Shown here: in pieces, positions 10,100 to 34,495 of the stretch
How positions within the stretch are numbered: the stretch's first letter is position 1
Layout of the letters: each line of letters starts with the position of its first letter
Assembly: GCF_024223415.1 (NCBI RefSeq)
Contig: NZ_CP100501.1
DNA: 64,000 nt
From: Escherichia coli
GTDB lineage: Bacteria; Pseudomonadota; Gammaproteobacteria; Enterobacterales; Enterobacteriaceae
Direction: 5' to 3' (one strand)
Program-made: the position numbers and the translations under genes
Notes under the pieces: model-generated
What the model saw: only the letters and a program-made list of their open reading frames with translations
The model's database searches: none
Told to the model about the DNA's origin: nothing

Positions 10100-11097
10100 C
10101 AGTTCAGCCCCATTTTTCTCAGCTGCTCGCCCACCTGCTCCGCGCCGTAAAGCGTGCGAATGGTCGGATTCATCGCCTGACCGTCCATGACCACGATATG
10201 GCCTTTTTTCACCGCCTCCAGCTGGCTGACGGCGGGATCGCTTTTGAGGAATTTGATCTTCTCCTCGGCTTTATCCAGCGCCCAGCGGTTACGATCCAGG
10301 CTGGCGACCACGATCACATCCGGGTTGGCGGCAATAATGCTCTCCCAGCTCACCGTGGGCCACTCGGTTTCGGAGGTAATCGCATTATGTCCGCCCAGCA
10401 CGCTGGCGATAAATCCGGAGGCGCTGTTTTTGCCGCCGACATAGGCATCGGCCGAAGGTGAGGCGCTGGAGAACCAGAAGACGAAGGAGAGATCCTTTTT
10501 GCTTTTACCAAACTCCTGGCGCAGGTCGGCTTCACGTTTTTTGAAATCGGCAATCAGCGCCTGACCACGATCTTCGACGTTGAAAATGCGGGAAAAATCG
10601 CTAATTTCCTGATACAGCCAGGTCATATCCCACAGCTTTTGCCGGCTGCCGTACATATCGCCGGTGGCCTTTTTGGTGGCGCACACCCCCGGTGAGACGT
10701 AGCTGTTCACGCCGACGGTGGCGAGATCTTCACGCCTGGCGACTTTGCTTTCCGGCCCCAGCAGCAGCGGCAACTGGGCGGGAACGAAATCAGGATTTTG
10801 CGCCAGCACCGATTCCAGGCTCGGAATTTCCACCGTCAAGGTTTTAATCTTCGCGTTTTGCTCAGCCAGCTGCGGTAAAACGCTGGTCGGCCAGAAGGCG
10901 CTGGCGACCACCTGCTTTTGCAGCCCGAGCAGCAGCAGAATTTCGACCGTATTTTGCCCCAGCGCGACCACGCGCTCCGGCGGCCGGGTGAAGGTCTCCT
11001 GATAGCCGCAGTTTTCAATCGTCAGGGGGTAGGTTGTTGCCAGCGCGGAACTGACGGCGGTGAACATCAAGCCTAACGCGCAAAGGACCTTCTTCAT
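10099..11097 (-). CDS. eitA: Periplasmic substrate-binding protein of an iron/siderophore-type ABC transporter (EitA-like)
   Basis: 332-aa ORF with N-terminal signal peptide MKKVLCALGLMFTAVSSALA; first gene of the operon. Confidence 0.85.
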   Translation of the reverse strand: MKKVLCALGLMFTAVSSALATTYPLTIENCGYQETFTRPPERVVALGQNTVEILLLLGLQKQVVASAFWPTSVLPQLAEQNAKIKTLTVEIPSLESVLAQNPDFVPAQLPLLLGPESKVARREDLATVGVNSYVSPGVCATKKATGDMYGSRQKLWDMTWLYQEISDFSRIFNVEDRGQALIADFKKREADLRQEFGKSKKDLSFVFWFSSASPSADAYVGGKNSASGFIASVLGGHNAITSETEWPTVSWESIIAANPDVIVVASLDRNRWALDKAEEKIKFLKSDPAVSQLEAVKKGHIVVMDGQAMNPTIRTLYGAEQVGEQLRKMGLN

Positions 11098-11212
11098 TAA
11101 ACGCTATCCTTGTAAACAGGCGAGTGGATGACCAGCAAATGGGAGTAATGCAAATGAAACTCATTATTATCGCGGGGTTTTATACAATGCCATATTTACA
11201 GTGTCAATGTGT

Positions 11213-11420
11213 TCTTGCCCCCTTATTTCCAGACAGGGGTTGTATCTTAAGTTAATGTTACCCGCTGACGTCGATATTCTCGCGGAGAGCGATAACCCAA
11301 CGCACTGTGCGGATGGTTTTCATTGTAATGTTCGATCGCCACTGCAAGATTATGCAATGCCGTTCTTACATTCGGTTTCGGCATGAACGCGATGTAGTCT
11401 TCCTTGGGGTCCGCTTGGAA
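11213..11420 (-). mobile_element. Relic of an IS2-like right end (IR plus 3' end of OrfB), diverged
   Basis: Aligns by eye with the IS2 IRR/OrfB 3' end at about 75 percent identity; no intact ORF. Confidence 0.4.
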
Positions 11421-11451
11421 AACGGAAAATATCCCACGCTAAGACTATTTT

Positions 11452-12042
11452 CTATACAGTAACAGTTTGCTGTTTCGCTCTAACTCTCAGAATTGTTTGC
11501 CGTGTGGTTCGGAATTCCCTGGCAATAGCACTTATACTTGCTCCAGACTTAATGTGTTCGAGTACCTTCTGTTTTTGTTCTTCATTTAATACCGGTGGGC
11601 GACCAAAACGTTTTCCTGCATCCCGTGCTCTTGCTATCCCTGAATAAGTTCGTTCAAGTAAAAGATCTCGTTCAAATTCAGCGACCGCTGAAATCACTTG
11701 CATTGTCATTTTTCCTGCCGGACTGGTCAGATCAACACCACCTAATGCCAGGCAATGTACCCTGATGCCAGATTCGGTCAGTTGCTCCACTGTTTTCCTG
11801 ATATCCATTGCATTACGACCGAGGCGATCCAGTTTTGTGACTATCAATACATCGCCACTTTCCAGACGATCAAGCAACCGGTTAAAACCTGGACGTTCAC
11901 TGGCTGCTACTGATCCACTAATTTGTTCTTCGATTATTCGTTGGGGTCTGACGTTAAAACCCGCGCTTTCGATTTCCCGACGTTGATTTTCGGTCGTCTG
12001 TTCCAGAGTGGAAACCCGACAATAGGCAAAAATTCGAGACAT
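11452..12042 (-). CDS. Serine recombinase (resolvase/invertase family)
   Basis: 196-aa ORF, N-terminus [15 protein letters not shown] with catalytic Ser, C-terminal HTH. Confidence 0.9.
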
Positions 12043-12085
12043 AGTGAGATCTTCTGTACGAAATGGGTGTACATATTATAATGCA

Positions 12086-12157
12086 TGTCCGAAAGTAATT
12101 TCGCTGACTTTCGGATATATCTGTTTAACAATGTCCGAAACCGGTCGATTTCGGACA
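12086..12157. promoter_or_regulatory. res-like site: paired inverted repeats upstream of the resolvase gene
   Basis: TCCGAAAGT-N10-ACTTTCGGA (12088..12115) and perfect TGTCCGAAA-N8-TTTCGGACA (12132..12157), 45-115 bp from the resolvase start. Confidence 0.5.
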
Positions 12158-12542
12158 CCAAAACCACTGTTGTCCCGCCATTCTGGCGATTCCTGAAAGC
12201 CCTTTGGCTAAAAAATAGTCTTAACATGGTTTATTTTCCGAATTCCAAACTGACCCCGCTAACGCGGAGATACGTCCCGACTTCGGGTAAACCCTCGTCG
12301 GGACCACTCCGACCGCGCACAGAAGCTCTCTCATGGCTGAAAGCGGGTATGGCTTAGCAGGGCTGGGGATGGGTAAGGTGAAATCTATCAATCAGTACCG
12401 GCTTACGCCGGGCTTCGGCGGTTTTACTCCTGTGCCATATGCAACAACGGAGTGCCGCCTTACATGCGCTGACGCGCATTATTTGCCTTGTTCCGTCTGA
12501 AACTAATCACTATGATTAAATATGATTAACAACTAATCGGGT

Positions 12543-12827
12543 ATGCAAATGAAAAACAATACCGCACAGGCAACAAAAGTCATTACCGCGCATGTGCCAT
12601 TACCAATGGCTGATAAAGTCGACCAGATGGCCGCCAGACTGGAACGCTCCCGGGGCTGGGTTATCAAACAGGCGCTTTCTGCATGGCTTGCCCAGGAGGA
12701 GGAGCGTAATCGCCTGACGCTGGAAGCCCTGGACGATGTGAAATCCGGACAGGTTATCGACCATCAGGCTGTACAGGCCTGGGCGGACAGCCTCAGTACT
12801 GACAATCCGTTACCGGTGCCACGCTGA
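12543..12827 (+). CDS. Ribbon-helix-helix antitoxin (ParD/CopG-like)
   Basis: 94-aa ORF overlapping the downstream toxin by ATGA. Confidence 0.75.
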   Translation: MQMKNNTAQATKVITAHVPLPMADKVDQMAARLERSRGWVIKQALSAWLAQEEERNRLTLEALDDVKSGQVIDHQAVQAWADSLSTDNPLPVPR

Positions 12828-13102
12828 TGGAACTGAAGTGGACCAGTAAGGCGCTTTCTGATTTGGCGCGGTTATATGATTTTCTGGTGCTGGCCAGTAA
12901 ACCTGCGGCCACCAGAACGGTGCAGTCCCTGACACAGGCACCGGTCATTCTGTTAACTCATCCACGTATGGGAGAACAGTTGTTTCAGTTTGAACCCAGG
13001 GAGGTCAGACGGATTTTTGCTGGCGAGTACGAAATCCGTTACGAACTTAATGGCCAGACTATTTATGTATTGCGCCTGTGGCACACACGAGAAAACAGGT
13101 AG
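12827..13102 (+). CDS. RelE/ParE-family toxin
   Basis: 91-aa ORF, C-terminal ...YVLRLWHTRENR typical of RelE/ParE. Confidence 0.8.
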   Translation: MELKWTSKALSDLARLYDFLVLASKPAATRTVQSLTQAPVILLTHPRMGEQLFQFEPREVRRIFAGEYEIRYELNGQTIYVLRLWHTRENR

Positions 13103-13207
13103 ATTGTGTGTGGGGACAACTTAACATAGCCTGCAGATATTAATTCTGGAACATTATTATCAGGCCAGATATTTTTCATTCCATTAAATAATCTTGTAGG
13201 AGATAAA

Positions 13208-13447
13208 ATGAATTACGATGAAATAACGAAAATTACCGCTGAACGTATTAGCGACTACATGACCGAAGCAGTTAATACAGACTCTATAGCCGTTGCGGAA
13301 ATGTTTCATAACGCTGCATGGGGAGTGCGAACATTGTGGTTTGAACTCGTCACAAAAATAGATATGGATATACATAAAAAGAACAGGTATGCGAGTTATG
13401 ATCTTAGAAGGAAAATCGAAATACAGCATGAAGAGTTTCACGTATAG
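13208..13447 (+). CDS. Hypothetical protein (AT-rich island)
   Basis: 79-aa ORF with plausible RBS; no recognisable motif. Confidence 0.3.
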
Positions 13448-13609
13448 GAAATTGAAAAACTAAGCGATACCACTGTCCGCGTCTTATGCCTCGTGCGGTA
13501 AGCTGTTTTTCACATCACGCCGGTGTTTTTTCTCTCTGCGTGGTCGGTTTTTATACTGCGGATGGGGTTTTTTATCCTTTCCCCGGATTGCTGACACACT
13601 TACCCTGTA

Positions 13610-14902
13610 TCAGGCCGGCACATACCTCAGCAGACTGATATCCCGCGCGTTTTTCTTCAGCCCTGATACATTCAGCCCCGCAAGGGCCCGGCGGTATACC
13701 ATCCGGCCGCCACACAGCACGCATTCGAACGGGTCACGACTCAGGAACTGTTTCACCATTTGTGCATAGCACACTTTCGCCACCGGTTCCGGTTTATCCA
13801 TCCCCAGAGCTCGGTACACCTGCGGCAGCTTCTCTCCACACCCCCGGTTGGCAAGGAACCCGAAGTACCTCACCATCTTAAAAAACTTCTCCGGGATGTG
13901 CTGTTTCATCCTCGCGACCAGCTCACGCTGCGTCAGCGTTTCCGTCGCTGTCTCTCCCGTTTTGTGGTCCAGGTAACGGAAGCTCAGGCTCGCCCCTCCG
14001 TTGTAATGTGCCAGCCGGGAAGCCGCTATTGGTGGCTTCTTCAGATAACGACCCAGGTAGCGTGCCGTATTCCGCCCGCCGGCCGTCTTCTTCGACATGT
14101 ACACATGCCAGTATTTTCCGCCGGCTTTCAGCACCAGGCTTCTCCACTGTGATTCCGTCGTGATATGTGACAACGACTCCGGCATCGCCATCCCCTCTGA
14201 CCACGCTTTCAGAAGCAACTGCCGTATATTCCACATCCACCGCGAACGCATTGCGTCTTTCAGGAAGCTCAGCTTTTTCCACTGACCGTGCTTATTCAGC
14301 CCCCCGCAGGTTACTGACACATGTACATGCGGATGCCAGTTGAGACGACGGCCATATGTGTGGATGGCGCAGAAGATACCGGGTTCCAGCCCCCGTTTTC
14401 GGGCGGCATACAGCAGCCAACGGTTGCTTTCGAACACCGGCCACAGCGTGTCCGGCAGGGTGAAGACCAGGTGTACCCAGTCGCAGTCAGGAAGACGATT
14501 CAGCTGTGTCGCTGTCCACAGGTCTGTGGCCTTTTTTCCGCAGGACGGGCAGGCACGGCTGCCACATGAGTTAGTGACGTATCTGACGTGGGGACAGTCA
14601 GGTTTATCGCAGTTGTATTCCTTCACGCCCAGTATCCGCGTGCCGCAGGCCAGCATTTTGGTGACAGCCTCAACCTCGATATCGCGCAGACCGCCCGCAT
14701 CCAGGAAGGACGTCCAGCACTGGTTGGCTGTGAACAGGCGTTTCAGCGGACGGGGCTGAAAATCACCACCACTTCGGGTCATCCATCCTGCACGCTCCAT
14801 CTGATAATGTTCTGACAGGTAAAAATAATATCCCGCATGATTTGTGTGCTCATGATTTCTGATAATATCAGATATGGTTTTATCATCAATGATGAAAATC
14901 AT
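13610..14902 (-). CDS. IS91-family (HUH rolling-circle) transposase
   Basis: Cys-rich zinc-binding N-terminus, HxH (HPHVHV) and paired-Tyr region; true start probably internal (MERAGWMTRSGG...). Confidence 0.85.
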   Translation of the reverse strand: MIFIIDDKTISDIIRNHEHTNHAGYYFYLSEHYQMERAGWMTRSGGDFQPRPLKRLFTANQCWTSFLDAGGLRDIEVEAVTKMLACGTRILGVKEYNCDKPDCPHVRYVTNSCGSRACPSCGKKATDLWTATQLNRLPDCDWVHLVFTLPDTLWPVFESNRWLLYAARKRGLEPGIFCAIHTYGRRLNWHPHVHVSVTCGGLNKHGQWKKLSFLKDAMRSRWMWNIRQLLLKAWSEGMAMPESLSHITTESQWRSLVLKAGGKYWHVYMSKKTAGGRNTARYLGRYLKKPPIAASRLAHYNGGASLSFRYLDHKTGETATETLTQRELVARMKQHIPEKFFKMVRYFGFLANRGCGEKLPQVYRALGMDKPEPVAKVCYAQMVKQFLSRDPFECVLCGGRMVYRRALAGLNVSGLKKNARDISLLRYVPA

Positions 14903-15139
14903 ATCTGATATGATTTTATGTGAATTGCTTAATTAGCATATCATTTGCCCGTTTCCCGCCGTGCAGATCCGGTTTCCGGCGAAGTCGGATCGACCTAATC
15001 TTTGTTTCTGATATGAACATCTCGGAGAGGTGTAAGCAATGGTATAAACGAAATGTATTATGTATCTGCATCACAGCATGCGGGCACATTTTGCGGCAGG
15101 ATATGAATCCCCCCGGAATAACTGGCAAAGGACAGATAA

Positions 15140-17234
15140 ATGGACATTGAAATACGCCACTGCAATAACATCGTACGAGCACATATCACCCTCACTGCCG
15201 ATAAACTGAACATTAAGTTTGCGCCAAATGGTACTGGAAAAAGTACGCTGTCACGGGCCATAAGCTGTGCGGCGCGGGACGACATTCAGGGACTACAGGC
15301 ACTGATGCCCTTCCGGCTGCGCGGAGAAAACCCCGATAGCACCGGGCCCATTGTCATCGGTGCTGACGGGATTGGGGACGTGATGTGCTTCAACGAGGAG
15401 TACGTCAGTCAGTTTACGTTCCAACCGGACGAGCTCATCAGTGACAGCTTTAATATTCTTATCCGCAATCAAGCCCATGCGGAAAGAGAGCGTGAAATAG
15501 AAGAAATGACGCAAAAGATCCGGGCTGTTTTCACGGATCACACTGAGCTGAACTCTCTGATAGACCATCTACAGGAACTCAGTAATGCTTTCAAATCAAC
15601 CAGTTCCGGGATTTCACGTTCTTCAACCGGCATGAGAGGTCTGTCAGGCGGAAATAAAATACACCACATTCCGGCTGGTCTTGAGAACTATCAACCCTAC
15701 ATCCGCAGTGAACGCCGCGTGGAATGGATTGACTGGCAGACAAAGGGACTCGAGTTTTCGCCCCTTTCGGATGGCTGCTGTCCGTTCTGTACCGGTGATA
15801 TCACGGGAAAGGAAGCACAAATTCGCCAAGTCAGAGAGGAATACGATAAATCCACCATTAAAAATGACGGAGAGCGCCAGAGAACGCCTTCTGGCCATTA
15901 CTATGCTTCAGAACGGTCCGGAAGCCGAACATATCGAGTACCTAGTGGCGTTGAAACGCCAGACCGATACGCTGACAGAGAAACTCACTGCGCTGAGAGG
16001 CCTGAATGTTTTCAGCCTGCAGGAACAGCAGAACGTTCGGGAGGTGCTCACTGCCAGGTTGATTGACCTGCAGTTCTTCCCTGATCTGCAATCCGAACTC
16101 ATGCAGGGGATCACCGACAGACTGAACGCGGCCCTTATGGACCTGATAAACCTTGCCGGACCGCTGCAGGGAAAAATTAACCGGCACCGGGACAGCATGA
16201 TCCGGCTGATCGCACAGCACAAAACAAACATCAATAATTTCCTCACTTATGCAGGCTATAAATACAGGGTGGATATAGCCGGCGAGGGAGAGCAGAGAAA
16301 ACTCAGGCTACGACACATAGATTTTGACGGGTACGTCAGCGGCGGTAGCCAGCATCTCAGCTATGGAGAACGGAACGCCTTTGCGATTGTGTTATTCATG
16401 TATGAATGCCTGTCAAAAAACCCGGGACTGATTATCCTTGATGATCCCATATCTTCTTTTGATAAAAACAAGAAGTTTGCCATTCTTGAAATGCTGTTCA
16501 GACGTGCAAGTGGTGAATGCCTGAAGAACCGGACTGTACTTATGCTGACGCATGACGTGGAGCCTGTGATTGACACGCTGAAGTCAGTCAGAAGGTTGTT
16601 CAGTAATCAGGTGACCGCCTCCTGCCTGCGCCTGTCTGCTGGAGTCATAGAAGAATTACCTGTTAACGACGGCGATATCATGACATTCATGCAGATCTGC
16701 AAATCCATCACCGCGTCAGCAGACTGTGAGGAGATCATTAAGCTCATCTATCTTCGTCGCTACTTTGAAATCGTTGACGAACGTGGTGATGCTTATCAGC
16801 TTCTATCCAATCTATTCCATCGACGCGTCGCCCCGCTGGATTATCGCGAGCCTGCCGCTGCGGGCTCGGGCTATCCCAAAATGGCTCCTGAGAAAATTCA
16901 GCAGGCCTTGCGGGATATCCGGGAGTATGTGGACAGTTTTGATTACCCGCGACTTCAGGCTCTCGTCAGCAGCCCAGATGAAATAAAAAACCTGTACCGT
17001 CGCTGTCGTAACGGCTATGAAAAACTGCAGGTATTCCGTTTACTGGAACTGGATCAGGACCATCCGGTAATACGAAAATTCGTTAACGAAACGTACCACA
17101 TTGAAAATGAGTTCATCTGTCAACTAGATCCGTCCAGATTCGATCTCATCCCGGAGTACGTGATTATGGAATGTGACAAGTTCATCGCCCTGCCACCGGC
17201 AGCAAACCAGAGCTCGGTTGCCCGTATCGCTTGA
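15140..17234 (+). pseudogene. Rad50/RloC-like ABC ATPase with CxxC hook-like motif and about 240-aa C-terminal domain of unknown function; split by a frameshift in an A5 run
   Basis: Walker A FAPNGTGKST (N-terminal ORF 15140..16066); CPFC motif mid-insert; ABC signature LSYGERNAF, Walker B LIILDD, H-loop LMLTHD (C-terminal ORF, other frame); frames rejoin if one A is removed at 15860..15864. Confidence 0.65.
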
Positions 17235-17395
17235 GCCACTGTTTTTGCCGCCGGAAGATAGGCTTTAGCTCCCTGATAGTCTGATCTTCGAAGATACCCT
17301 ACAGTTTAGGACCGCTTACTGTAGATATCTGTTAAAACAGCCCGTATACGGGCTGTTTCTTGGTGCCCTTATCTCCTGACTTTGAAAAGAGTGTC

Positions 17396-17812
17396 TTACT
17401 TCACCCAGTCTTCCAGCACCAGGTCAGGCACTCGCTCAAATTCTCTTGTATTATTCGTTACCAGTATCGCCCCGGCGGCGATGGCGTGCCCGGCAATCGC
17501 CGTGTCGTTCGGGCCGATCGGCGTCCCGGCCAGCCGCAGTGCCACTTTAATCTTCGTGGTGGCGTCTACTGCGGCGCGATCCCAGGGCAGGATGGCATCG
17601 AGGCGGGCGCAGAATTCATCGACCAGTTGGACGTGACGTGGTGAGGCCTTTGGGCCGGTAGCCCCGAAGCGCATTTCAGAGTAGGTGATGGCCGAGACCA
17701 CTATACGGTGGCCGCGTAGCACCGCCTGCTCCAGACGCTTCAGGACGGCTTCTGGCTGTTCACGCATGATGAACGAGCAGATACAGGTATCAAGCATATA
17801 AGTCTTGTTCAC
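17396..17812 (-). CDS. vapC: PIN-domain toxin VapC (VagD-like)
   Basis: MLDTCICSF... PIN signature; overlaps upstream antitoxin gene. Confidence 0.85.
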   Translation of the reverse strand: MNKTYMLDTCICSFIMREQPEAVLKRLEQAVLRGHRIVVSAITYSEMRFGATGPKASPRHVQLVDEFCARLDAILPWDRAAVDATTKIKVALRLAGTPIGPNDTAIAGHAIAAGAILVTNNTREFERVPDLVLEDWVK

Positions 17813-18039
17813 AGGTTAAATCGCCCTTCGTCGCTGACAACATCCTCGCGCTCCGCCATAAAATCTGGATCGGCTTTTTCGTACTCTAGGAATGATCCCC
17901 AGGTTGGCCGGACGGGGCGCAGGATGATGCTGTCCCCTTCCCGGACGATCTCGAGCTCGCTCACCCCCTCAAAATCCAGATCACGAGGCAGACGGATGGC
18001 GCGGTTGTTGCCATTTTTAAATATCGATACGGTTCTCAT
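17809..18039 (-). CDS. vapB: AbrB/SpoVT-type antitoxin VapB (VagC-like)
   Basis: 76-aa ORF MRTVSIFKNGNNRAIRLP..., 4-bp overlap with vapC. Confidence 0.8.
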   Translation of the reverse strand: MRTVSIFKNGNNRAIRLPRDLDFEGVSELEIVREGDSIILRPVRPTWGSFLEYEKADPDFMAEREDVVSDEGRFNL

Positions 18040-18598
18040 GTTCTTTCTCTCCCGAGCATATGGATATGTGAAACATATCCGGAATATTCAAAGCACCGGG
18101 TGTGTGCATATGTTTAGTATAGGCAGATGTGTGGCATATGTATAGCGGTAGCATATGTAGATGCCATGCATATGTTTAGCATATCCCTATTTCTTTCTTT
18201 TTTATCGGAGATCCGAAAAAAGGTTGTTCAGGATCTTCCTCTCCCCCCACACAACGCCACCTCCTGTAAGCACAACATGTGGTGCCGGATTCAGCTGCTG
18301 ATGACACTATATGTTGTGTCATCTCCCTGACCTGTGATGCGTCGCGCAGGGGCGGAAAACAGCGATATGATGATTTCCTCAGCGTGGTACACTTCCGGAA
18401 AGTTGTGATATTCTGGAAAGTCGGATCTGACGGAAACGGCTCTCCGGTAATTTAACGGCGTGGTTATATGGATGCTTGTTATCATGGTGATGATGATAAC
18501 GGCATGATGTTATCAGACGGCGTGACGGTAAGGGCAGTGATGATGGATGACGTTATCGCATGACCGTCCCTGCCCGGAAAAGAAAAAAGGAGTCACCC

Positions 18599-19012
18599 AT
18601 GTTTTTTATTAAGAATGAAGGTCAGGCTGTCGCCAGAACGGATTACTGGCAGTCTGTACAGGCGCAGGCCGGATATGTCTACCTCAGCTGGAATGCCGGC
18701 GCAGCCAGGCTGCTTGTCCCGGATGCGGCAAAACATTTACTCAGGGAGATGCGGGGGGCTGAGTACGTCATCATCAGTAAGGGAACGCTGCATGGCCGCG
18801 ATGCGCTGGAACTGATATTTGAAGACGGCAGCGATGCGCCGTTCGTGATCCACATGCTGAGCGAGCAGTGCGATCGCCTGCTCCCCGAAAACAACCAGGG
18901 CGGGGGTTTTGTTGTCACCGTCTGGACGCGTGGCGGTAACCAGCTCCGTTATCCGGGAAAGTACCGTGTTGTGGAAAACCTGCCCGACGTTTCCCCGTGG
19001 AGTGAACACTGA
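18599..19012 (+). CDS. Hypothetical protein upstream of the recombinase
   Basis: Start at ATG 18599 with AAGGAG RBS; stop overlaps the recombinase start (TGATATG). Confidence 0.5.
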   Translation: MFFIKNEGQAVARTDYWQSVQAQAGYVYLSWNAGAARLLVPDAAKHLLREMRGAEYVIISKGTLHGRDALELIFEDGSDAPFVIHMLSEQCDRLLPENNQGGGFVVTVWTRGGNQLRYPGKYRVVENLPDVSPWSEH

Positions 19013-19013
19013 T

Positions 19014-19799
19014 ATGCAGCACCTGCCGGCACCGATCCACCATGCCCGGGATGTCGCTCAGCTTCCTGTTGCCATCGATTATCCGGCAGCGCTGGCACTC
19101 CGCCAGATGTCGATGGTTCATGATGAACTGCCAAAATACCTGCTGGCCCCTGAAGTGAGCGCCCTGCTCCATTACGTCCCGGATCTGCGCCGCAAGATGC
19201 TGCTGGCCACACTGTGGAACACCGGTGCGCGCATTAATGAAGCACTGGCGCTGACGCGGGGGGATTTTTCGCTTGCGCCCCCGTATCCGTTTGTGCAGCT
19301 GGCCACTCTGAAGCAGCGGACAGAAAAAGCCGCCAGGACGGCAGGAAGAATGCCCGCCGGTCAGCAGACTCACCGGCTGGTTCCGCTTTCCGACACCTGG
19401 TACCTCAGCCAGCTGCAGACGATGGTGGCCACACTGAAAATCCCCATGGAACGGCGTAATAAACGAACAGGCAGGACAGAGAAAGCGCGGATCTGGGAAG
19501 TGACGGACAGAACGGTCAGGACCTGGATTGGGGAGGCGGTTGCCGCCGCTGCCGCTGATGGTGTGACGTTCTCTGTCCCGGTCACGCCACATACGTTCCG
19601 CCATTCCTATGCGATGCACATGCTGTATGCCGGTATACCGCTGAAGGTCCTGCAGAGCCTGATGGGGCATAAGTCCATCAGCTCAACGGAGGTCTACACG
19701 AAGGTGTTTGCACTGGATGTCGCGGCGCGCCATCGTGTGCAGTTCGCTATGCCGGAAGCCGATGCGGTAGCGCTGATAAAACAACTTGAGAGGCGTTAA
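19014..19799 (+). CDS. Tyrosine site-specific recombinase (FimB/XerC-like)
   Basis: C-terminal HTFRHS...LMGHKSISSTEVYTKV with R-H-R-Y residues; track ORF 18909..19799 includes an unlikely N-terminal extension. Confidence 0.85.
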   Translation: MQHLPAPIHHARDVAQLPVAIDYPAALALRQMSMVHDELPKYLLAPEVSALLHYVPDLRRKMLLATLWNTGARINEALALTRGDFSLAPPYPFVQLATLKQRTEKAARTAGRMPAGQQTHRLVPLSDTWYLSQLQTMVATLKIPMERRNKRTGRTEKARIWEVTDRTVRTWIGEAVAAAAADGVTFSVPVTPHTFRHSYAMHMLYAGIPLKVLQSLMGHKSISSTEVYTKVFALDVAARHRVQFAMPEADAVALIKQLERR

Positions 19800-20039
19800 A
19801 AAGCCGTATTCGCGGTTCAGTCAAGGGGGAGCTGGTGCATCCATCTGTGGAAGATAGAGCACCAAACTCATAGAGGCCACGTTCTCAGGCCAGAACAGTC
19901 TTATATCTCTGGCGCTGACAACCCATAGTACTTGCCTGGATGGGAAACTCTTCTTGTGCTGAGCGTAAGAGCCATCTGCCGGAACGCTTCCTCGCCAGTT
20001 CGCTCGCTACGCACAGTTACATGGCTGCGGCGAGGGCTG

Positions 20040-20400
20040 CCTGATTCTAATAATGATATTTCAGCATGATAGCAGCAATAAAATAGATTGCAGCTATCAT
20101 GCTGTACACATACGGCCTAGCGCTCTGCTTATGTTATGCTATCTGCAATCTTGCGGCAATCTTGCTTCATCTGTCGATGCGATTCTGAATGAGGTTTCTT
20201 TTATTGTTAACGTGACACAAGTATTCGGCTGTCAATTCCAGCACTCTGCTAAGTAGCAAGATTTAATCTTGCTACTAGATTTTTTATTGTTGCAATCTTG
20301 CTGCAAGCTGTTATCTTGTTCTGGAAGAGTTACTCTACCTAACCTCAATCTGGTTTATATTGATGTTTGCTGCAAGATAGCAGCAAGTAAAGGGGGCTAA
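20040..20400. repeat. Array of GCAATCTTGC/GCAAGATTGC-type repeats and palindromes upstream of parA (putative operator/centromere)
   Basis: Recurrent motif at about 20065, 20140, 20255, 20290 and 20365; repeated again at 21410..21500. Confidence 0.55.
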
Positions 20401-21033
20401 ATGGCCTGGATAGTTGGTTTTATTTCTCAGAAAGGTGGTGTGGGCAAAAGCACTAAAGCGAGAGCGTTAGCGCGTGAAGCATCCGCCTGTGGTATCAAAA
20501 CAAAATTAGCTGATCTCGACTTGGAACAGGCAACGAGTGCTGAGTGGCATCGTAGACGTCTGTCAGCTGGTTTGTCACCGGTTGCTTCAGTTGAAGTGTT
20601 TTCAACAGCAAAGCAGGCGATAGAATCTGCCGGCGATTTTGACCTTCTGATTCTTGATGGCCCTGCTCGTGCAAGTAAAGGTACTTCAGAAATTGCTAAG
20701 GTCGCCGACCTTATCGTCCAGCCAACGGGGGCCTCCCTTGACGATCTTGTCCCGGCAATTAAAGTTTTCAACGCGTTGGTAAAAGAAGGTATACCACGTT
20801 CAAAACTGGTCTTCGCTTTAAGCCGGGTAGGTACCGAAGCGGAAGAGCTGGATGCTCGTGCATATATCAGTGAAGCAGGTTATGAAACTTTATCTGGATG
20901 CCTTTTTGAGAAGCCAGCATACAGAAAAGCGATGAATTCAGGACTCGCTGTGACAGAAACACGTTATAAAGGTTTAAACGAGAGAGCTGATGAACTTATC
21001 CAGGCACTCATCGATAAGATTGGAGAAGAGTAA
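20401..21033 (+). CDS. parA: ParA-family partition ATPase (small type Ib)
   Basis: Deviant Walker A KGGVGKST at the N-terminus; 210 aa. Confidence 0.85.
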   Translation: MAWIVGFISQKGGVGKSTKARALAREASACGIKTKLADLDLEQATSAEWHRRRLSAGLSPVASVEVFSTAKQAIESAGDFDLLILDGPARASKGTSEIAKVADLIVQPTGASLDDLVPAIKVFNALVKEGIPRSKLVFALSRVGTEAEELDARAYISEAGYETLSGCLFEKPAYRKAMNSGLAVTETRYKGLNERADELIQALIDKIGEE

Positions 21034-21407
21034 TGGCTGATGCGTCAAAACTTAGAACTAAAAGAACCCGTAGTGGGTTGGGGGTACCCCCGGGCCCCGA
21101 CGAAGTGGCTACCAGCTTGAATGCGCCTGAGATAGCTCCGGCTGTCGCTGCCACTGATGTTCAGAGACAACAGGCAGACTCATCGCCAGTGCACCATGAG
21201 CCTGTGGTTACGCAAACTGTGACCGAGGTATATACCCGCCGCGATGGCCGTTCTGCCAGAAAAACAAACAGGACGCTGGCATTTGCAACACGTGTCACAC
21301 CTGCTTTCGACCAAGAGATCCGGGATATCGCAGAGCGTGAGGGGTTGAAACTGGTGGAAGTTCTGGAAAAAGCAGTTGAGGCATATAAGGAAAAACAGGG
21401 CTATTAA
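21033..21407 (+). CDS. Putative centromere-binding partner of ParA (ParG/ParB-like)
   Basis: 124-aa ORF directly after parA (ATGA overlap), followed by a second repeat block. Confidence 0.5.
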   Translation: MADASKLRTKRTRSGLGVPPGPDEVATSLNAPEIAPAVAATDVQRQQADSSPVHHEPVVTQTVTEVYTRRDGRSARKTNRTLAFATRVTPAFDQEIRDIAEREGLKLVEVLEKAVEAYKEKQGY

Positions 21408-21409
21408 TC

Positions 21410-21500
21410 CGGGATGCAGCAATCTTGCTGCATTCTTTTTTTGTGTGCAATCTTGCAGCAAGATTTATGCTAGATAAATGCTAGATTGCTGCAAGATAAA
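21410..21500. repeat. Second block of GCAATCTTGC-type repeats, upstream of stbA
   Basis: gcagcaatcttgctgcattc ... tgcaatcttgcagcaagattt ... ctagattgctgcaagataaa. Confidence 0.5.
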
Positions 21501-21645
21501 TGATATAATGCTCAAATTGAGTAGTTAACTGCCCCAGGTAAGTACGCAGCTTGAGTACTTACCTGTGGTTTATGAACGTATTTACTTAATGTGAGTAGTT
21601 ATTGGGTGAAGATTAATACTCAAATTGAGTATAAATGGAGATGGT

Positions 21646-22620
21646 ATGAGAATTTTTTGCGATGATGGTTCTACAAATGTGAAACTTGCCTGGTTTGAAG
21701 GCAAGACGCTGAAAAGTGCGGTATCAGTGAACTCTTTTCGCCATAACTGGAAAGTCGAGGGCTTAGGCAGCAGTCGTACCTATAACTATTTGCTTGATGG
21801 CCGTAAATATACCTACGACCCGGTCAGCGAAGATGCGATCAGCACGACTCATATTGAGTATCAGTACTCTGATACAAATGTGTTGGCAGTTCACCACGCA
21901 TTACTGAACAGTGGAATTGAACCCCAGGAGATCGATCTCACCGTTACGTTACCTATCAGCGAGTTTTACACGGCCGACTGCCAGAAAAATACGCTTAACA
22001 TTGAGAGAAAAATTCGCAACCTGATGCGGGAAGTCACCCTGAACAAAGGGGGAACTTTTACCATTAAAAGCGTTGAAGTGATGCCTGAATCACTCCCGGC
22101 TGTATTTACTCGCCTAGTTGCTGACAATGTTGGTCAGTACGAAAAATCATTGGTTATCGATCTCGGTGGTACAACTCTGGATGTCGGGGTTATTGTTGGC
22201 CAGTTTGAGGATGTTTCGGCTGTACATGGTAATCCTGATATTGGTGTATCAATGGTCACGAAAGCCACGCTCACTGCACTGAAAATGGCCAGCAGTGATA
22301 CCAGTCCAATGATTGCTGACGAGTTGATCAAAAACAGGAAGAACCTGGATTTTGTGGGGCAGGTTGTAAATGAGGTTTCTAAACTAAATCTGGTGCTGGA
22401 TACCATTGATACAGCGATAAATAAACTGGGCGAGCTAGTTGTTGATGATTTGCTGCAGTATCGAAACGTAAACCGCGTATATATTGTCGGAGGCGGGGCT
22501 GCACTCATTGCTGATGCTGTTCGTAAGGCATGGAACCACCTTGGCGAAAAGGTGGTTCTTATGGATGAACCTCAGACAGCGCTGGTCCAGGCTATTGCAC
22601 GCTTCAAAGCGGAGGAGTAA
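21646..22620 (+). CDS. stbA: Actin-like segregation ATPase StbA/ParM
   Basis: MRIFCDDGSTNVKLAW N-terminus (actin-fold phosphate-1 motif); start at ATG 21646 with GGAG RBS. Confidence 0.85.
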   Translation: MRIFCDDGSTNVKLAWFEGKTLKSAVSVNSFRHNWKVEGLGSSRTYNYLLDGRKYTYDPVSEDAISTTHIEYQYSDTNVLAVHHALLNSGIEPQEIDLTVTLPISEFYTADCQKNTLNIERKIRNLMREVTLNKGGTFTIKSVEVMPESLPAVFTRLVADNVGQYEKSLVIDLGGTTLDVGVIVGQFEDVSAVHGNPDIGVSMVTKATLTALKMASSDTSPMIADELIKNRKNLDFVGQVVNEVSKLNLVLDTIDTAINKLGELVVDDLLQYRNVNRVYIVGGGAALIADAVRKAWNHLGEKVVLMDEPQTALVQAIARFKAEE

Positions 22621-22623
22621 TCG

Positions 22624-23016
22624 ATGTACGACGGCGAAGAAAGGAAAAAACTTTCACTCTACCTTCACCCGGAGGACTCTGCCGATTGTCTTGCACTGGC
22701 TGAAATCGAAACTGTTCCCCGGAAAAAACGGGGGGAGTTATATCGGCAGGCTTTGATAACCGGCCTGATAATGCATCAGCTTGATGAGAGAATTCCCGCC
22801 GTGTTAACCGCGCTATTCACCAGAGAACTGAATGCGGATGAGGTCATTAGTCAGATTGCCAGGATAACAGGCTGGAAACCCTCCTCCGGTGATTTAAAAG
22901 AGGTACTGAAGGCGTTGGGAGGGCTTCAGAGTACAGTTTCACCAGAACTCTCTCAGGATGACGGTGAACAGGCCCGTCTGAAAGCGGCTAGGGTGAAGAT
23001 GCAAAAGCTAATCTAA
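22624..23016 (+). CDS. stbB: StbB/ParR-like partition adaptor
   Basis: 130-aa ORF immediately downstream of stbA. Confidence 0.6.
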   Translation: MYDGEERKKLSLYLHPEDSADCLALAEIETVPRKKRGELYRQALITGLIMHQLDERIPAVLTALFTRELNADEVISQIARITGWKPSSGDLKEVLKALGGLQSTVSPELSQDDGEQARLKAARVKMQKLI

Positions 23017-23171
23017 AAAAGTCTCGCTCCGTGAAACCTGCAAAATTTCTCGGGGTGTGCGGCTTAATTTTTAGATTTCCGCGTTTCCCGTCATTTGAGT
23101 CAATGGAGTGCTGGTTGACAGCTCCCTGCTCTGAAGGACGGGGATTCCCACATATGCAGCCAGATTTCCGG

Positions 23172-23279
23172 CTAGTGTGGTTTCAGACGTTGTTCGATTT
23201 CATTCTGTAGCGCCTGAAGTGTGCCTGATTTGAGGTTTTTTGTGCTCTGGCGGTCGAAAAGAATTTCAATGCGGATCAT
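23172..23279 (-). CDS. DinI/ImpC-like small ORF, apparently truncated (35 codons)
   Basis: MIRIEILFDRQSTKNLKSGTLQALQNEIEQRLKPH resembles the DinI N-terminus; GGGAGA RBS; LexA box just upstream. Confidence 0.35.
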   Translation of the reverse strand: MIRIEILFDRQSTKNLKSGTLQALQNEIEQRLKPH

Positions 23280-23300
23280 GTTCTCATCTCCCTTTTATTT

Positions 23301-23320
23301 TACTGTGTATATATACAGTA
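23301..23320. promoter_or_regulatory. LexA (SOS) box
   Basis: TACTGTGTATATATACAGTA, one mismatch from the CTGT-N8-ACAG consensus palindrome. Confidence 0.65.
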
Positions 23321-23672
23321 TTCTAATAACTGAATCCACACACAGTCAAATGTCATTGTTGTGACTAAAAAACGCTCAATTCTCTGAGAGTGTGGCTGTA
23401 TGCCTGCTGTGGACTGCTGTGTCCAGCTTATCCACAGCATTTTGTGCACGGTTCTGTGGACAAAATACCTGGTTACCCAGGCCGTGCCGGCACGTTAACC
23501 GGGCTGCATCCGATGCAAGTGTGTCGCTGTCGCCGGCCTTCTCACCCGGTCACGTTTCGTCGTTCCTCCTCCACGAGCTGCGGCTTCGGGGCCGCACCTG
23601 CATTCGTATGCGGTCGCCCGGTTACAGGTGCGGCACGGCCTGATGGAGGCCGCATGTGAGAGGAGAATTCCC

Positions 23673-24599
23673 ATGCCAAACTGGTGCTCAAATCGTATGT
23701 ATTTTTCTGGTGAACCGGCACAGATTGCTGAGATTAAACGACTGGCCAGCGGTGCAGTCACACCGTTTTATCGCCGCGCCACAAATGAAGGTATTCAGCT
23801 GTTTCTGGCCGGAAGTGCCGGACTTCTGCAGACCACTGAAGATGTGCGGTTTGAACCATGTCCCGGACTGACGGCTGCCGGACGTGGCGTTGTATCGCCG
23901 GAGAATATCGCGTTCACCCGCTGGCTGACATACCTGCAGGACGGTGTACTGCTGGATGAGCAAAACTGCCTGATGCTGCATGAACTCTGGCTGCAGAGCG
24001 GTACTGGACAGCGTCGCTGGGAAGGATTACCGGACGATGTCAGGGATACCATCACCGCACTTTTCACCGCAAAAAGAGGTGACTGGTGTGGCTTCTGGAG
24101 TAACGAAGATGTATCGGTGTGGTGGAACCGTCTGTGTGACAACGTACTGCCGGAAAAAACCATGCCGTTTGACCTGCTGACGGTTCTGCCCACCCGCCTG
24201 GATGTTGAAGTGAATGGCTTTAACGGTGGTGTTCTGAACGGTGTTCCTTCTGCATATCACTGGTATACGGAACGGTATGGCGTGAAGTGGCCTGTGGGGT
24301 ATGAGGTGAATATCAGTAATCAGGGAGACAACTTCATTAAGGTGGATTTCGACACGCCGTGGTGTCAGCCGGAAAGCGACGTTATTGCAGAATTAAGCCG
24401 CCGTTTCAGCTGCACGCTGGAGCACTGGTATGCCGAACAGGGCTGTGATTTCTGTGGCTGGCAGTTGTATGAGCGCGGAGAGCTCGTTGATGTGCTGTGG
24501 GGGGAACTGGAATGGTCTTCCCCGACAGATGACGATGAGCTGCCGGAAGTCACCGGACCTGCGTGGATAGTCGACAATGTGGCGCATTATGGCGGATGA
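23673..24599 (+). CDS. Hypothetical leading-region protein
   Basis: Start MPNWCSNRMYF at ATG 23673 with GAGAGGAG RBS; conserved-looking, function unknown. Confidence 0.6.
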   Translation: MPNWCSNRMYFSGEPAQIAEIKRLASGAVTPFYRRATNEGIQLFLAGSAGLLQTTEDVRFEPCPGLTAAGRGVVSPENIAFTRWLTYLQDGVLLDEQNCLMLHELWLQSGTGQRRWEGLPDDVRDTITALFTAKRGDWCGFWSNEDVSVWWNRLCDNVLPEKTMPFDLLTVLPTRLDVEVNGFNGGVLNGVPSAYHWYTERYGVKWPVGYEVNISNQGDNFIKVDFDTPWCQPESDVIAELSRRFSCTLEHWYAEQGCDFCGWQLYERGELVDVLWGELEWSSPTDDDELPEVTGPAWIVDNVAHYGG

Positions 24600-24981
24600 A
24601 GTATGACGGAGACGGGCGGGCAACTGCCCGTTTCTTTTCCGGTAAAGGATGTCGCCATGCTCCTCTTTTTACTGCGCCGGCTGACGCGGCGCGGCATAAA
24701 CGCTGCCTGTGGTCAGTGTCCCGCGTCCGGTGGGCACGGGACGGGCGCTTTTACCGCTCCCGGCTGGCGTCGGTGACAGTGTACGCCAGCCTGTCGCCCT
24801 TTTCTGATGAACGCCCTTCAAGCCGCTTTCGCGGCATAACCTTGCCGTCAAACAGACGACGGCTGCGGTATTCCACGGTCGGCCTGACCCGTTACCGGAC
24901 GCGGTGAACAGCCCACAGGCAGCGGGGAACGGGCACCACAGGGGTGCCCTCCCGGTGCCCCCTGTAAGAGAAGGAGCTGTT

Positions 24982-25665
24982 ATGTCCCGTTTTATCCTGG
25001 GTGACTGCGTGCGTGTTATGGCCACGATTCCTGATAACGCCATTGATTTCATATTAACCGATCCGCCATATCTCGTCGGTTTCCGTGACCGTTCCGGGCG
25101 CACCATTGCCGGTGACGTTAATGATGACTGGCTGCAACCGGCCTGTAATGAGATGTACCGCGTACTCAAAAAAGACGCGCTGATGGTCAGCTTCTACGGC
25201 TGGCACCGTATTGACCGCTTTATGGCGGCCTGGAAACGCGCCGGATTCAGCGTGGTTGGCCACCTGGTCTTCACCAAAAACTACACATCCAAATCTGCGT
25301 ATGTCGCGTACCGCCACGAATGCGCTTACATCCTGGCAAAGGGCAGTCCGGCCCGGCCCCGTAACCCGCTGCCGGATGTGCTGGGCTGGAAATATTCGGG
25401 CAACCGCCATCACCCGACGGAAAAGCCCGTTACCAGCCTGCAACCGCTGATTGAGAGCTTCACACATCCGAACGCGATTGTGCTGGATCCGTTTGCAGGC
25501 AGCGGTTCAACCTGCGTGGCCGCCCTTCAGTCCGGACGCCGGTATATCGGTATCGAGCTGCTTGAACAGTATCACCGTGCCGGACAGCAACGACTGGCCG
25601 CCGTGCAACGGGCCATGCAGCAGGGGGCCGCGAATGATAACTGGTTTATGCCGGAGGCTGCGTAA
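24982..25665 (+). CDS. Orphan DNA methyltransferase (N6-adenine/N4-cytosine class, beta-group order)
   Basis: DPPY motif near the N-terminus and FAGSGST near the C-terminus; start MSRFILGD with GAAGGAG RBS; no adjacent restriction gene. Confidence 0.85.
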   Translation: MSRFILGDCVRVMATIPDNAIDFILTDPPYLVGFRDRSGRTIAGDVNDDWLQPACNEMYRVLKKDALMVSFYGWHRIDRFMAAWKRAGFSVVGHLVFTKNYTSKSAYVAYRHECAYILAKGSPARPRNPLPDVLGWKYSGNRHHPTEKPVTSLQPLIESFTHPNAIVLDPFAGSGSTCVAALQSGRRYIGIELLEQYHRAGQQRLAAVQRAMQQGAANDNWFMPEAA

Positions 25666-25887
25666 ATGAACTATGCCGGACACGAAAAACTTCGCGCCGA
25701 CGTGGCGGAGGTGGCCAATGCCATGTGCGACCTGCGTACAACCATGAATGAGATGGAGCGGCGGTACAGCTTTAATGCTGACACCCTGCCGGAACGTCTG
25801 GTGCGTCAGACGTTGTTTCGCGCAAACCGCCTCCTGATGGAGGCATATACCGAAATTCTGGAACTGGATTCCTGCTTCAAAGATTGA
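25666..25887 (+). CDS. Hypothetical small protein
   Basis: 73-aa ORF tightly packed after the methyltransferase. Confidence 0.5.
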   Translation: MNYAGHEKLRADVAEVANAMCDLRTTMNEMERRYSFNADTLPERLVRQTLFRANRLLMEAYTEILELDSCFKD

Positions 25888-25900
25888 GAAGGAGACGAGA

Positions 25901-26335: not shown

Positions 26336-26379
26336 TGTTATCGCCGCCTTCGGGCGGCGATTCAGGGAGACCATGAATC

Positions 26380-27150: not shown

Positions 27151-27217
27151 TGACGCTGGCGGGGAAAAATCTCCGCCTTTTCCAGCCGGTCCCCGGAAAG
27201 AGCAAAAGGATGTCGCC

Positions 27218-27548: not shown

Positions 27549-27564
27549 CAACGGAGGAAATCCC

Positions 27565-27990: not shown

Positions 27991-28036
27991 TTAACGGACG
28001 GGGCGGCAATGCCGCCCCTGTAAAGGAGACGAGAAC

Positions 28037-29395: not shown

Positions 29396-29400
29396 TTCTT

Positions 29401-29922: not shown

Positions 29923-29950
29923 CGAAAGACAGTGACAACCGCCCCGTCCA

Positions 29951-34478: not shown

Positions 34479-34495
34479 CTATGGAGGATTCGGGA

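What the first reader, a model, noticed from the sequence alone, without database searches (positions are those of the whole stretch)
13450..15139. IS91-family element positioned to mobilise the adjacent ATPase gene
IS91-family elements transpose by rolling circle and can co-mobilise DNA beyond the upstream end of the transposase gene. Here the transposase (13610..14902, minus strand) has the ATPase gene 237 bp beyond its 5' side, the geometry expected for one-ended transposition cargo.
Basis: inference. Interest (0 to 1): 0.25.

Follow-up and report, generated by a model that had tools for sequence, protein, structure and literature searches.

The report
Decayed IS91-family remnant beside ATPase pseudogene
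This is a broken, stranded copy of a known IS91-family jumping gene that sits next to, but has not carried, a common plasmid ATPase gene (itself broken here), so the finding is ordinary.

Summary
The IS91-family call is right, but the element is a remnant and there is no sign that it mobilised the ATPase. The IS-derived DNA is 13440..14778. It has an intact oriIS end and a 390-aa tnpA (13610..14782, minus strand). It lacks about 375 bp that a full 1713-bp relative has: the small upstream ORF and the terIS hairpin. The IS joins the flank through a 6-bp microhomology (GGATGA) that contains the tnpA ATG. TnpA also lacks 12 residues of a helix that is gap-free in 57 homologues. The base quartet next to oriIS is TTTC, not a canonical target. 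However, both IS junctions sit at the same site in every public plasmid that has them (6 of 72,556 PLSDB plasmids; 24 and 27 of 5,426 E. coli genomes). The ATPase occurs in 560 genomes, mostly without the IS. IS-free relatives keep both flanks in the same order. The best explanation is an insertion followed by a deletion. The ATPase is a PADLOC PDC-S06 defence candidate, and a 44-bp deletion has frameshifted it here.

The parts
13208..13447 (+). Small hypothetical gene downstream of the RHH/ParE toxin-antitoxin pair, truncated by the IS insertion. Its last 8 bases are IS DNA. The intact form is 93 aa.
   Evidence: An intact paralogue in L001 continues ...GAGTTTC|AGAAAATGACAGAGCG. An intact 93-aa gene is present in L006. 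The continuation sequence is absent from the window.
13436..13439 (+). Tetranucleotide 5'-TTTC abutting oriIS on the bottom strand. This is a non-canonical target or initiation context.
   Evidence: Sequence read. The full relative L003 has GTTC at this position. TTTC is not among more than 1000 mapped IS91 insertion targets, and the paper describes the flanking tetranucleotide as essential (PMC13181058).
13440..14778 (-). IS91-family (ISSbo1-like) fragment of 1339 bp. It contains the oriIS end and tnpA. It lacks the upstream small ORF and terIS.
   Evidence: Boundaries come from comparison with a full 1713-bp copy (L003 4004..5716), its empty site (L005) and the IS-free plasmid L002. The fragment is 94% identical to copies annotated as ISSbo1 family.
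13440..13609 (-). oriIS end: a 170-bp non-coding stretch 3' of tnpA, ending in ...TTTTTCAATTTCCTATACGT in the tnpA orientation.
   Evidence: This is the only match to the oriIS terminus in the window. The terminal 91 bp are 100% identical to IS91-family copies in other contexts (H276, H277). Hairpins are only imperfect, as the literature describes.
13610..14782 (-). tnpA, 390 aa. The HUH motif (HPHVH), the YLGRY tyrosines and the Zn-binding cysteines are present. There is a 12-aa in-frame deletion.
   Evidence: The protein is identical to the 402-aa TnpA of CH4804 except for the deletion.
14404..14416 (-). Site of a 36-bp in-frame deletion between CTGCTG repeats. It removes LLNDVCRLAVEN.
   Evidence: The segment is gap-free with conserved positions 123, 124, 127 and 131 in 57 homologues. 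It lies in predicted helix 121-141 of the HUH core.
14779..14784 (-). 6-bp microhomology GGATGA at the IS/flank junction. It overlaps the tnpA ATG (14782..14780) and follows the ATG of the deleted hyp86 gene (14786..14784).
   Evidence: Three-way comparison of the window, L002 and L003.
14783..14902 (-). It is flank DNA, not IS DNA.
   Evidence: Identical DNA is present in IS-free plasmids.
14779..15139 (.). Divergent intergenic region between the (deleted) hyp86 gene and the ATPase gene. It contains a promoter-like site on the minus strand (14889..14862) and an imperfect palindrome (14862..14917).
   Evidence: The promoter scan found 4 sites against 2.3 expected, so this is weak evidence.
15140..17234 (+). 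AAA_13-type ATPase gene (PADLOC candidate defence family PDC-S06). It is a pseudogene here because of a 44-bp deletion at 15864/15865 between ACCTGAC repeats.
   Evidence: The intact 712-aa homologue matches PDC-S06 at E 3e-286. All listed E. coli genome hits retain the 44 bp.
17396..18039 (-). vapC and vapB toxin-antitoxin pair, always linked to the ATPase. The shared module ends at 18225.

Best explanation
This is an immobile, decaying remnant of an IS91-family (ISSbo1-like) insertion sequence that marks an old rearrangement junction in the accessory region of a plasmid. It is not a transposon carrying the ATPase.

The inferred history has five steps. (1) A full-length element inserted, oriIS end first, into the small gene downstream of the RHH/ParE pair, next to 5'-TTTC. 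(2) A microhomology-mediated deletion or illegitimate recombination at GGATGA joined the tnpA start codon to the translation start of the hyp86 gene, which lies divergently upstream of the ATPase. This removed the IS upstream ORF, terIS, the rest of the small gene and several kb of backbone. (3) A second slippage deletion of 36 bp between CTGCTG repeats removed 12 residues of a conserved helix in TnpA. (4) In the public pAPEC-O1-ColBM lineage a 1-bp deletion then frameshifted tnpA. (5) In the window's lineage a 44-bp deletion inactivated the ATPase instead.

The ATPase-vapBC module is resident plasmid backbone or accessory DNA that ended up next to the IS through the deletion. The junction sequences, the synteny, the distribution and the protein deletion are shown directly. 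The order of events and the loss of transposase activity are inferred.
For: The IS boundaries are defined by a full copy and its empty site. L003 4004..5716 is 1713 bp, inserted at GTTC with no target duplication, and its terIS hairpin ACCACG..GCAGCC-GCCA-GGCTGC..CGTGGT|TC folds with z = -2.3. In the window, IS homology stops at 14784 and flank homology starts at 14779, so the overlap is the 6-bp GGATGA. No terIS-like sequence exists anywhere in the window.

IS-free relatives keep the two flanks in the same order and orientation. pUTME-7-1 (L011) has RHH-ParE ... DUF6404-hyp196-hyp86-ATPase-vapCB, with L011 1501-2323 matching window 12395-13217 and L011 5188-8676 matching window 14781-18225. 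L008 shows the same arrangement.

The right junction is complete in only 6 of 72,556 PLSDB plasmids and 24 of 5,426 E. coli genomes. Twenty-two of those genomes hold the whole 7-kb context. The left junction is at the same site in 27 genomes. The 36-bp-deleted IS variant occurs nowhere else.

The plasmid of strain CH4804 has the same IS copy and the same junction with an undeleted 402-aa TnpA, so the junction predates the 36-bp deletion. The deleted 12 residues are gap-free and conserved in 57 family members at 39-96% identity. They form more than half of helix 121-141 in a model with pLDDT 90. TTTC is absent from more than 1000 mapped IS91 targets, and the flanking tetranucleotide is described as essential (PMC13181058).
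Against: No direct ancestor was found that has both the same small-gene allele and an intact intervening region, so a single intramolecular deletion cannot be told apart from recombination between two plasmids. tnpA is an open frame in this window, with the HUH and Y-x3-Y motifs intact and an oriIS identical to copies elsewhere, so residual activity is not excluded by sequence alone. Loss of function from the 12-aa deletion is inferred from conservation and a predicted structure, not measured. Nothing in the public collections searched matches the window's IncI-complex backbone more closely than about 96% identity, so its closest relatives could not be inspected.
Confidence: 0.8

Rival explanations
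1. One reading: an active IS91-family element whose rolling-circle transposition from oriIS runs through tnpA and, failing to terminate, co-mobilises the adjacent ATPase gene. Under this reading the ATPase is, or is about to become, one-ended-transposition cargo.
For: The geometry is correct, because the ATPase lies on the terIS side (PMC13181058). terIS and the Orf121-like ORF, which in IS91 promotes accurate termination and inhibits transposition, are both absent, so any initiation would necessarily run on into the flank. The tnpA frame is open with its catalytic motifs. The oriIS terminal 91 bp are identical to copies elsewhere. tnpA now sits behind the hyp86 promoter and RBS region.
Against: The unit is never found at a second site in 72,556 plasmids or 5,426 genomes. 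The ATPase is found without the IS in about 96% of the genomes that carry it. The far-end signature is absent. A 12-aa deletion removes part of an invariant-length conserved helix. The oriIS-flanking tetranucleotide TTTC is non-canonical. In 23 public relatives tnpA is additionally frameshifted. The cargo gene is a pseudogene here.
Confidence: 0.05
2. The IS/flank junction arose by recombination between two different plasmids, one carrying the IS in the small gene and the other carrying hyp86-ATPase-vapBC. This would be cointegrate formation or mosaic assembly at the GGATGA microhomology, rather than an intramolecular deletion.
For: These plasmids are visibly mosaic. The window shares 7180..18482 with the IncF plasmid pAPEC-O1-ColBM at 99.9% identity but continues into an IncI-complex backbone at about 96% identity. 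Homology breakpoints recur at 18225 and 18482 in several plasmids. CH4804 has different DNA after 236 bp of flank.
Against: Both flanks occur in the same order and orientation within a few kb in IS-free plasmids, which makes a simple deletion the more economical account. The sequence data cannot separate the two.
Confidence: 0.12
3. The truncated IS is the product of premature termination of rolling-circle transposition inside the element, so that a terIS-less copy was inserted as such.
For: Such a product would carry oriIS and lack terIS, as observed here.
Against: A simple insertion would be followed by the continuation of the target gene (AGAAAATGACAGAGCG...), which is absent. None of the tetranucleotides at the possible junction positions (CGGG, GGGT, GGTC, GTCA, TCAT, CATC, ATCC) resembles the GTTC/CTCG cleavage sites.
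Confidence: 0.02

Closest known systems
ISSbo1 and IS91 isoforms (IS91 family, HUH/Y2 rolling-circle insertion sequences of Escherichia and Shigella plasmids)
   Same: TnpA is 93-98% identical to full-length copies and DNA is 92-97% identical. The oriIS terminus is the same. The HUH, YxxxY and Zn-finger motifs are the same. The full relative inserts at GTTC without target duplication.
   Different: This copy lacks terIS and the upstream small ORF, lacks 12 residues of TnpA, and abuts TTTC instead of GTTC or CTTG. The full relative uses GTTC at terIS, like IS801 and IS1294, rather than the CTCG of IS91 itself, and its upstream ORF is 90 aa overlapping tnpA by 20 nt rather than orf121 (PMC13181058). 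The ISSbo1 name is taken from RefSeq annotation of hits, not tested against ISfinder.
ISCR elements (IS91-related 'common regions' that lack terIS and are thought to mobilise adjacent genes)
   Same: The architecture is the same: oriIS plus transposase gene, no terIS, and adjacent genes on the run-on side.
   Different: The transposase here is a typical IS91-family protein with the N-terminal Zn domain, not an ISCR-clade protein. terIS loss here is a one-off deletion in one plasmid lineage. There is no evidence of spread with different adjacent genes.
The IS91 family transposase annotated in pAPEC-O1-ColBM (NC_009837.1, locus APECO1_RS26225) between the eit operon region and the AAA ATPase/vapBC
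   Same: It is the same insertion at the same site with the same junctions, at 99.9% identity.
   Different: The window's copy keeps one base (14577) that the public copies lack, so its frame is open. The window's ATPase and eitC carry deletions that the public copies do not. The plasmid backbone to the right of 18482 is different.

Membership tests
IS91 family insertion sequence | HUH/Y2 transposase with an N-terminal zinc-binding domain | tested here: met
   Pfam Zn_Tnp_IS91 scores 77.9 bits (cutoff 26.3) and Y2_Tnp 195 bits (cutoff 20.9). NCBIfam transpos_IS91 scores 291.5 bits (cutoff 125). HPHVH, YLGRY and the cysteines align with invariant columns.
IS91 family insertion sequence | oriIS end downstream of tnpA with the conserved terminus | tested here: met
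   The terminus ...TTTTTCAATTTCCTATACGT is identical to the full copy L003, whose end was fixed by an empty-site comparison. The terminal 91 bp are identical to copies elsewhere.
IS91 family insertion sequence | Canonical target tetranucleotide (GTTC/CTTG type) flanking oriIS | tested here: not met
   The flank is TTTC. TTTC is not among the targets listed in Table 2 of PMC13181058.
IS91 family insertion sequence | terIS end (subterminal hairpin plus cleavage tetranucleotide) upstream of tnpA | tested here: not met
   IS homology ends at the tnpA ATG. The terIS sequence of L003 has no match with up to 3 mismatches in the 64-kb window.
IS91 family insertion sequence | Full-length, gap-free transposase core | tested here: not met
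   A 12-aa deletion lies in a segment with 0 gaps in 57 homologues, within predicted helix 121-141.
One-ended-transposition cargo unit (IS91/IS1294 type) | Cargo lies beyond the terIS side of the IS | tested here: met
   The ATPase starts 357 bp beyond the tnpA start, on the side opposite oriIS.
One-ended-transposition cargo unit (IS91/IS1294 type) | The same IS-plus-cargo unit is found at two or more different insertion sites | tested here: not met
   Both junctions are always at the same site and in the same context: 6 PLSDB plasmids, and 24 and 27 E. coli genomes.
One-ended-transposition cargo unit (IS91/IS1294 type) | The far end of the cargo abuts the continuation of the sequence interrupted at oriIS | tested here: not met
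   The continuation AGAAAATGACAGAGCGTGAGCAAGTACC is absent from the window with up to 3 mismatches.
One-ended-transposition cargo unit (IS91/IS1294 type) | Transposase activity of the resident copy | not testable with these tools
   Only inference from conservation and structure is available.
PADLOC PDC-S06 candidate defence ATPase (the neighbouring gene) | Full-length match to the PDC-S06 profile | tested here: inconclusive
   The intact homologue (L001, 712 aa) matches over 1-698 at E 3e-286. The window's copy is split by a 44-bp frameshifting deletion. The defence function itself is untested.

The most novel reading that the evidence does not exclude
The GGATGA deletion turned an ordinary IS91-family element into a natural ISCR-like element that can only transpose one-ended. 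It has an intact oriIS, no terIS and no Orf121-type inhibitor or termination factor, and tnpA has been captured behind a host plasmid promoter and RBS. In its undeleted form (the 402-aa TnpA of the CH4804 plasmid), and perhaps residually in this window, it could copy adjacent DNA of variable length (defence-candidate ATPase, vapBC, colicin genes) to new replicons. That would be a snapshot of how ISCR-type gene-capturing elements arise.
Probability: 0.05. Interest if true: 0.5.

Novelty: already known. Interest (0 to 1): 0.1.

Why it matters
It matters little beyond correct annotation. The element is an already-annotated IS91-family transposase gene of the pAPEC-O1-ColBM plasmid lineage. The work shows three things that should stop over-interpretation of the IS and ATPase adjacency as cargo. 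The IS is a terIS-less remnant with a damaged transposase. The ORF start that a naive reader takes is flank DNA. The neighbouring ATPase, a candidate phage-defence gene that is widespread on enterobacterial plasmids, is resident backbone and is inactivated here. The only wider interest is the speculative parallel with the origin of ISCR elements.

Tried and rejected
1. I first suspected a large internal deletion in TnpA. The NCBIfam profile covers positions 7-355 of 356, and the real lesion is only 12 aa.

2. I followed NZ_CP025846 (L004/L007, IncI-gamma/K1), where a full IS91-family copy lies about 540 bp from a truncated ATPase, as a possible independent case of one-ended transposition. I rejected it. 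The IS there is a simple insertion with GTTC at both junctions inside an IS3-family element, and that element is what truncates the ATPase.

3. I followed NZ_CP059918 (L003), where a full copy lies 2.3 kb from the ATPase in the same orientation. It is a simple insertion into gajA with a clean empty site (L005), and it is only 92-97% identical to the window's copy, so it is not the ancestor.

4. L008 (NZ_CP010139) was tested as a direct IS-free ancestor. Its yacAB allele is unrelated at the DNA level. L011 is a better syntenic comparator, but IS903B interrupts it.

5. I looked for stable oriIS hairpins. The folds are not better than shuffled sequence (z = -0.65 and -0.29), which fits the 'imperfect palindromes' described in the literature but adds nothing.

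6. No solved structure of an IS91-family transposase was found by sequence search. Foldseek against the PDB gave only insignificant HUH relaxase and AAV Rep hits with E above 0.04.

7. The promoter scan found 4 sites against 2.3 expected in shuffles, too weak to claim that tnpA is expressed.

8. A literature search for this IS in pAPEC-O1-ColBM found only a passing mention of IS91-like sequences near aatA.

Full report
**Observation.** The region holds a 430-aa ORF at 13610..14902 on the minus strand. It matches the two Pfam domains of IS91-type transposases, Zn_Tnp_IS91 (E 5.9e-22) and Y2_Tnp (E 1.5e-57). It also matches the NCBIfam equivalog transpos_IS91 at 291.5 bits against a cutoff of 125. 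An ATPase-like ORF starts at 15140.

**Where the IS really starts and ends.** The window from 7180 to 18482 is 99.2-99.9% identical to pAPEC-O1-ColBM (NC_009837.1, locus L001).

- Thousands of other plasmids share only the part from 14779 rightwards. One example is p14EC020b (L002). There the ATPase is preceded by two small divergent genes, an 85/86-aa one called hyp86 here and a 196-aa one called hyp196 here, and there is no IS.
- A full-length relative is present in NZ_CP059918 (L003). Its ends were fixed by comparison with an empty site in NZ_CP029978 (L005). It spans 1713 bp (L003 4004..5716) and is inserted after 5'-GTTC with no target duplication.
- On the bottom strand the L003 copy begins ACGTATAGGAAATTG (oriIS) and ends ...GCAGCCGCCAGGCTGCCGTGGTTC (terIS hairpin plus GTTC). 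It encodes a 402-aa TnpA and a 90-aa upstream ORF.
- Against this yardstick the window's IS DNA runs from 13440 to 14778. The oriIS terminus at 13440 is the only such match in the window.
- Homology to the IS continues to 14784 and homology to the IS-free flank begins at 14779. The two are therefore joined across a 6-bp microhomology, GGATGA.
- That hexamer contains the tnpA ATG (14782..14780). It lies just after the ATG of hyp86 (14786..14784), whose body has been deleted.
The true tnpA is 13610..14782 (390 aa).
- About 375 bp of the IS are missing, namely the upstream ORF and terIS. No terIS-like sequence occurs anywhere in the 64-kb window.

**State of the transposase.**

- The window's TnpA is identical to the 402-aa protein of the same IS copy in the plasmid of strain CH4804 (L009), except for an in-frame loss of LLNDVCRLAVEN. 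The loss is a 36-bp deletion between CTGCTG repeats.
- In an alignment of 57 full-length family members (39-96% identity) this segment has no gap in any sequence. It also contains four nearly invariant positions.
- An AlphaFold2 model of the intact protein has mean pLDDT 90.3 and pTM 0.87. It places the segment in a 21-residue helix (121-141) that links the strand carrying the FTLP motif to the strands leading into the HUH motif.
- Losing 12 of those 21 residues very probably damages the catalytic core. This is an inference, not a measurement.
- HPHVH, YLGRY and the zinc-binding cysteines are retained.
- All public copies of the 36-bp-deleted variant also lack one base that the window has at 14577. 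Those copies are frameshifted, whereas the window's frame is open.

**State of oriIS.** The terminal 91 bp are identical to IS91-family copies in unrelated contexts, so the end itself looks intact. The tetranucleotide that abuts it is TTTC. A recent experimental study of IS91 calls this flanking tetranucleotide essential. Among more than 1000 mapped insertions it lists CTTG, GTTC and a few rarer variants, but not TTTC (PMC13181058).

Rolling-circle transposition starts at oriIS and runs through tnpA towards terIS, and failures of termination carry along DNA beyond terIS (PMC13181058). The ATPase lies on that side. The comparative evidence is nevertheless negative.

- The right junction (14690..14870) is complete in 6 of 72,556 PLSDB plasmids and 24 of 5,426 complete E. 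coli genomes.
- The left junction (13350..13530) is found in 27 genomes, always at the same site in the same small gene.
- Twenty-two genomes hold the whole 7-kb context 11400..18400 in one piece.
- The ATPase segment itself is present in 560 genomes, so about 96% of its carriers lack this IS junction.
- The uninterrupted small gene continues AGAAAATGACAGAGCG.... That continuation should flank the far end of any one-ended-transposition insert, but it is absent from the window.
- In CH4804 the same IS copy and junction are followed, after 236 bp, by unrelated genes rather than the ATPase. In pLH10-b-1-A the IS is further truncated and no ATPase follows.
- Two other plasmids have a full IS91-family copy near the ATPase, NZ_CP059918 and NZ_CP025846. 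Both proved to be simple two-ended insertions, into gajA and into an IS3-family element respectively.

**Most likely history.** IS-free relatives carry the two flanks in the same order and orientation a few kb apart. In pUTME-7-1 (L011) the order is RHH-ParE, then IS903B, colicin Ia remnants, DUF6404, hyp196 and hyp86, then ATPase-vapCB. L011 1501-2323 matches window 12395-13217, and L011 5188-8676 matches window 14781-18225. L008 is similar.

The simplest account has two steps. The IS inserted into the small gene next to ParE. A microhomology-mediated deletion then ran from the tnpA start codon to the hyp86 start codon. The 36-bp tnpA deletion came later, because CH4804 has the junction without it. 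Recombination between two plasmids at the same microhomology cannot be excluded, since these plasmids are clearly mosaic.

**The neighbouring gene.** The intact homologue is 712 aa. It has weak Pfam AAA_13 matches and an essentially full-length match to the PADLOC candidate defence family PDC-S06 (E 3e-286). It is always followed by vapCB. In the window a 44-bp deletion between ACCTGAC repeats at 15864/15865 frameshifts it. All listed hits among the 560 E. coli genomes retain the 44 bp.

**Comparison with what is known.** The element is a member of the IS91 family by its transposase and its oriIS. RefSeq annotates its closest relatives as ISSbo1 family. As a copy it fails three features of a functional family member: terIS, a canonical flanking tetranucleotide and an undeleted transposase core. 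Its architecture, with oriIS and a transposase gene but no terIS, resembles ISCR elements, but it is a one-off deletion derivative with no sign of spread. The same locus is already annotated as 'IS91 family transposase' in pAPEC-O1-ColBM and its relatives.

**Verdict.** The family and the geometry are right, but the ORF start, the IS boundaries and the integrity of the ATPase are wrong. Novelty: already known. Interest: 0.1.

Noticed in passing
window 15864/15865: A 44-bp deletion between ACCTGAC direct repeats frameshifts the PDC-S06-type ATPase gene. All listed E. coli genome hits (of 560 genomes carrying the gene) and every plasmid inspected retain the 44 bp.
   Followed up: yes
window 8979..8988 (eitC): An 80-bp deletion between GCGGC repeats, relative to pAPEC-O1-ColBM and CH4804, frameshifts the eitC ABC-transporter ATPase gene (ORFs 8381..9004 and 8796..9065). 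With the tnpA and ATPase deletions, this makes three microhomology-flanked deletions within 8 kb.
   Followed up: partly
window 14577: The window has one base (A on the + strand) that all public copies of the 36-bp-deleted tnpA lack. Those copies are frameshifted, whereas the window's tnpA frame is open.
   Followed up: yes
window 18225..64000: To the right of vapB the window leaves pAPEC-O1-ColBM (IncF) and continues as an IncI-complex (K/B/O/Z-like) backbone only about 96% identical to anything in PLSDB. It has a MOBP relaxase (40436..43138), trbC (50963..53236) and a traY/dotA-like gene (60604..62763). The source plasmid is therefore a mosaic not represented in the collections searched.
   Followed up: partly
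window 2207..5704: A large autotransporter adhesin gene (aatA-like, as described for pAPEC-O1-ColBM) lies next to the eitABCD iron-uptake operon, upstream of the region studied.
   Followed up: no
L001 15771..16230 (pAPEC-O1-ColBM): A second, intact copy of the ParE 3' end plus the small gene lies 5.4 kb to the right of vapB. As a result, 403-bp direct repeats bracket IS91 remnant-ATPase-vapBC-integrase-colicin M/B genes in that plasmid. This could be a trace of circle integration or recombination. It is not present in the window.
   Followed up: no
L003 4004..5716 (NZ_CP059918.1): A full-length ISSbo1-like IS91-family element is inserted at GTTC inside gajA of a plasmid-borne Gabija (GajA/GajB) system, with a clean empty site in NZ_CP029978.1.
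   Followed up: yes
window 14862..14917: An imperfect palindrome lies in the divergent intergenic region between the deleted hyp86 gene and the ATPase gene. It may be an operator. It overlaps the promoter-like site on the minus strand.
   Followed up: no
window 18225/18226 and 18482: Homology breakpoints recur in several unrelated plasmids (L002, L003, L008 and L011 end at 18225/6; L001 and L007 end at 18482). This suggests that the ATPase-vapBC block is a discrete module with a fixed right-hand boundary.
   Followed up: no
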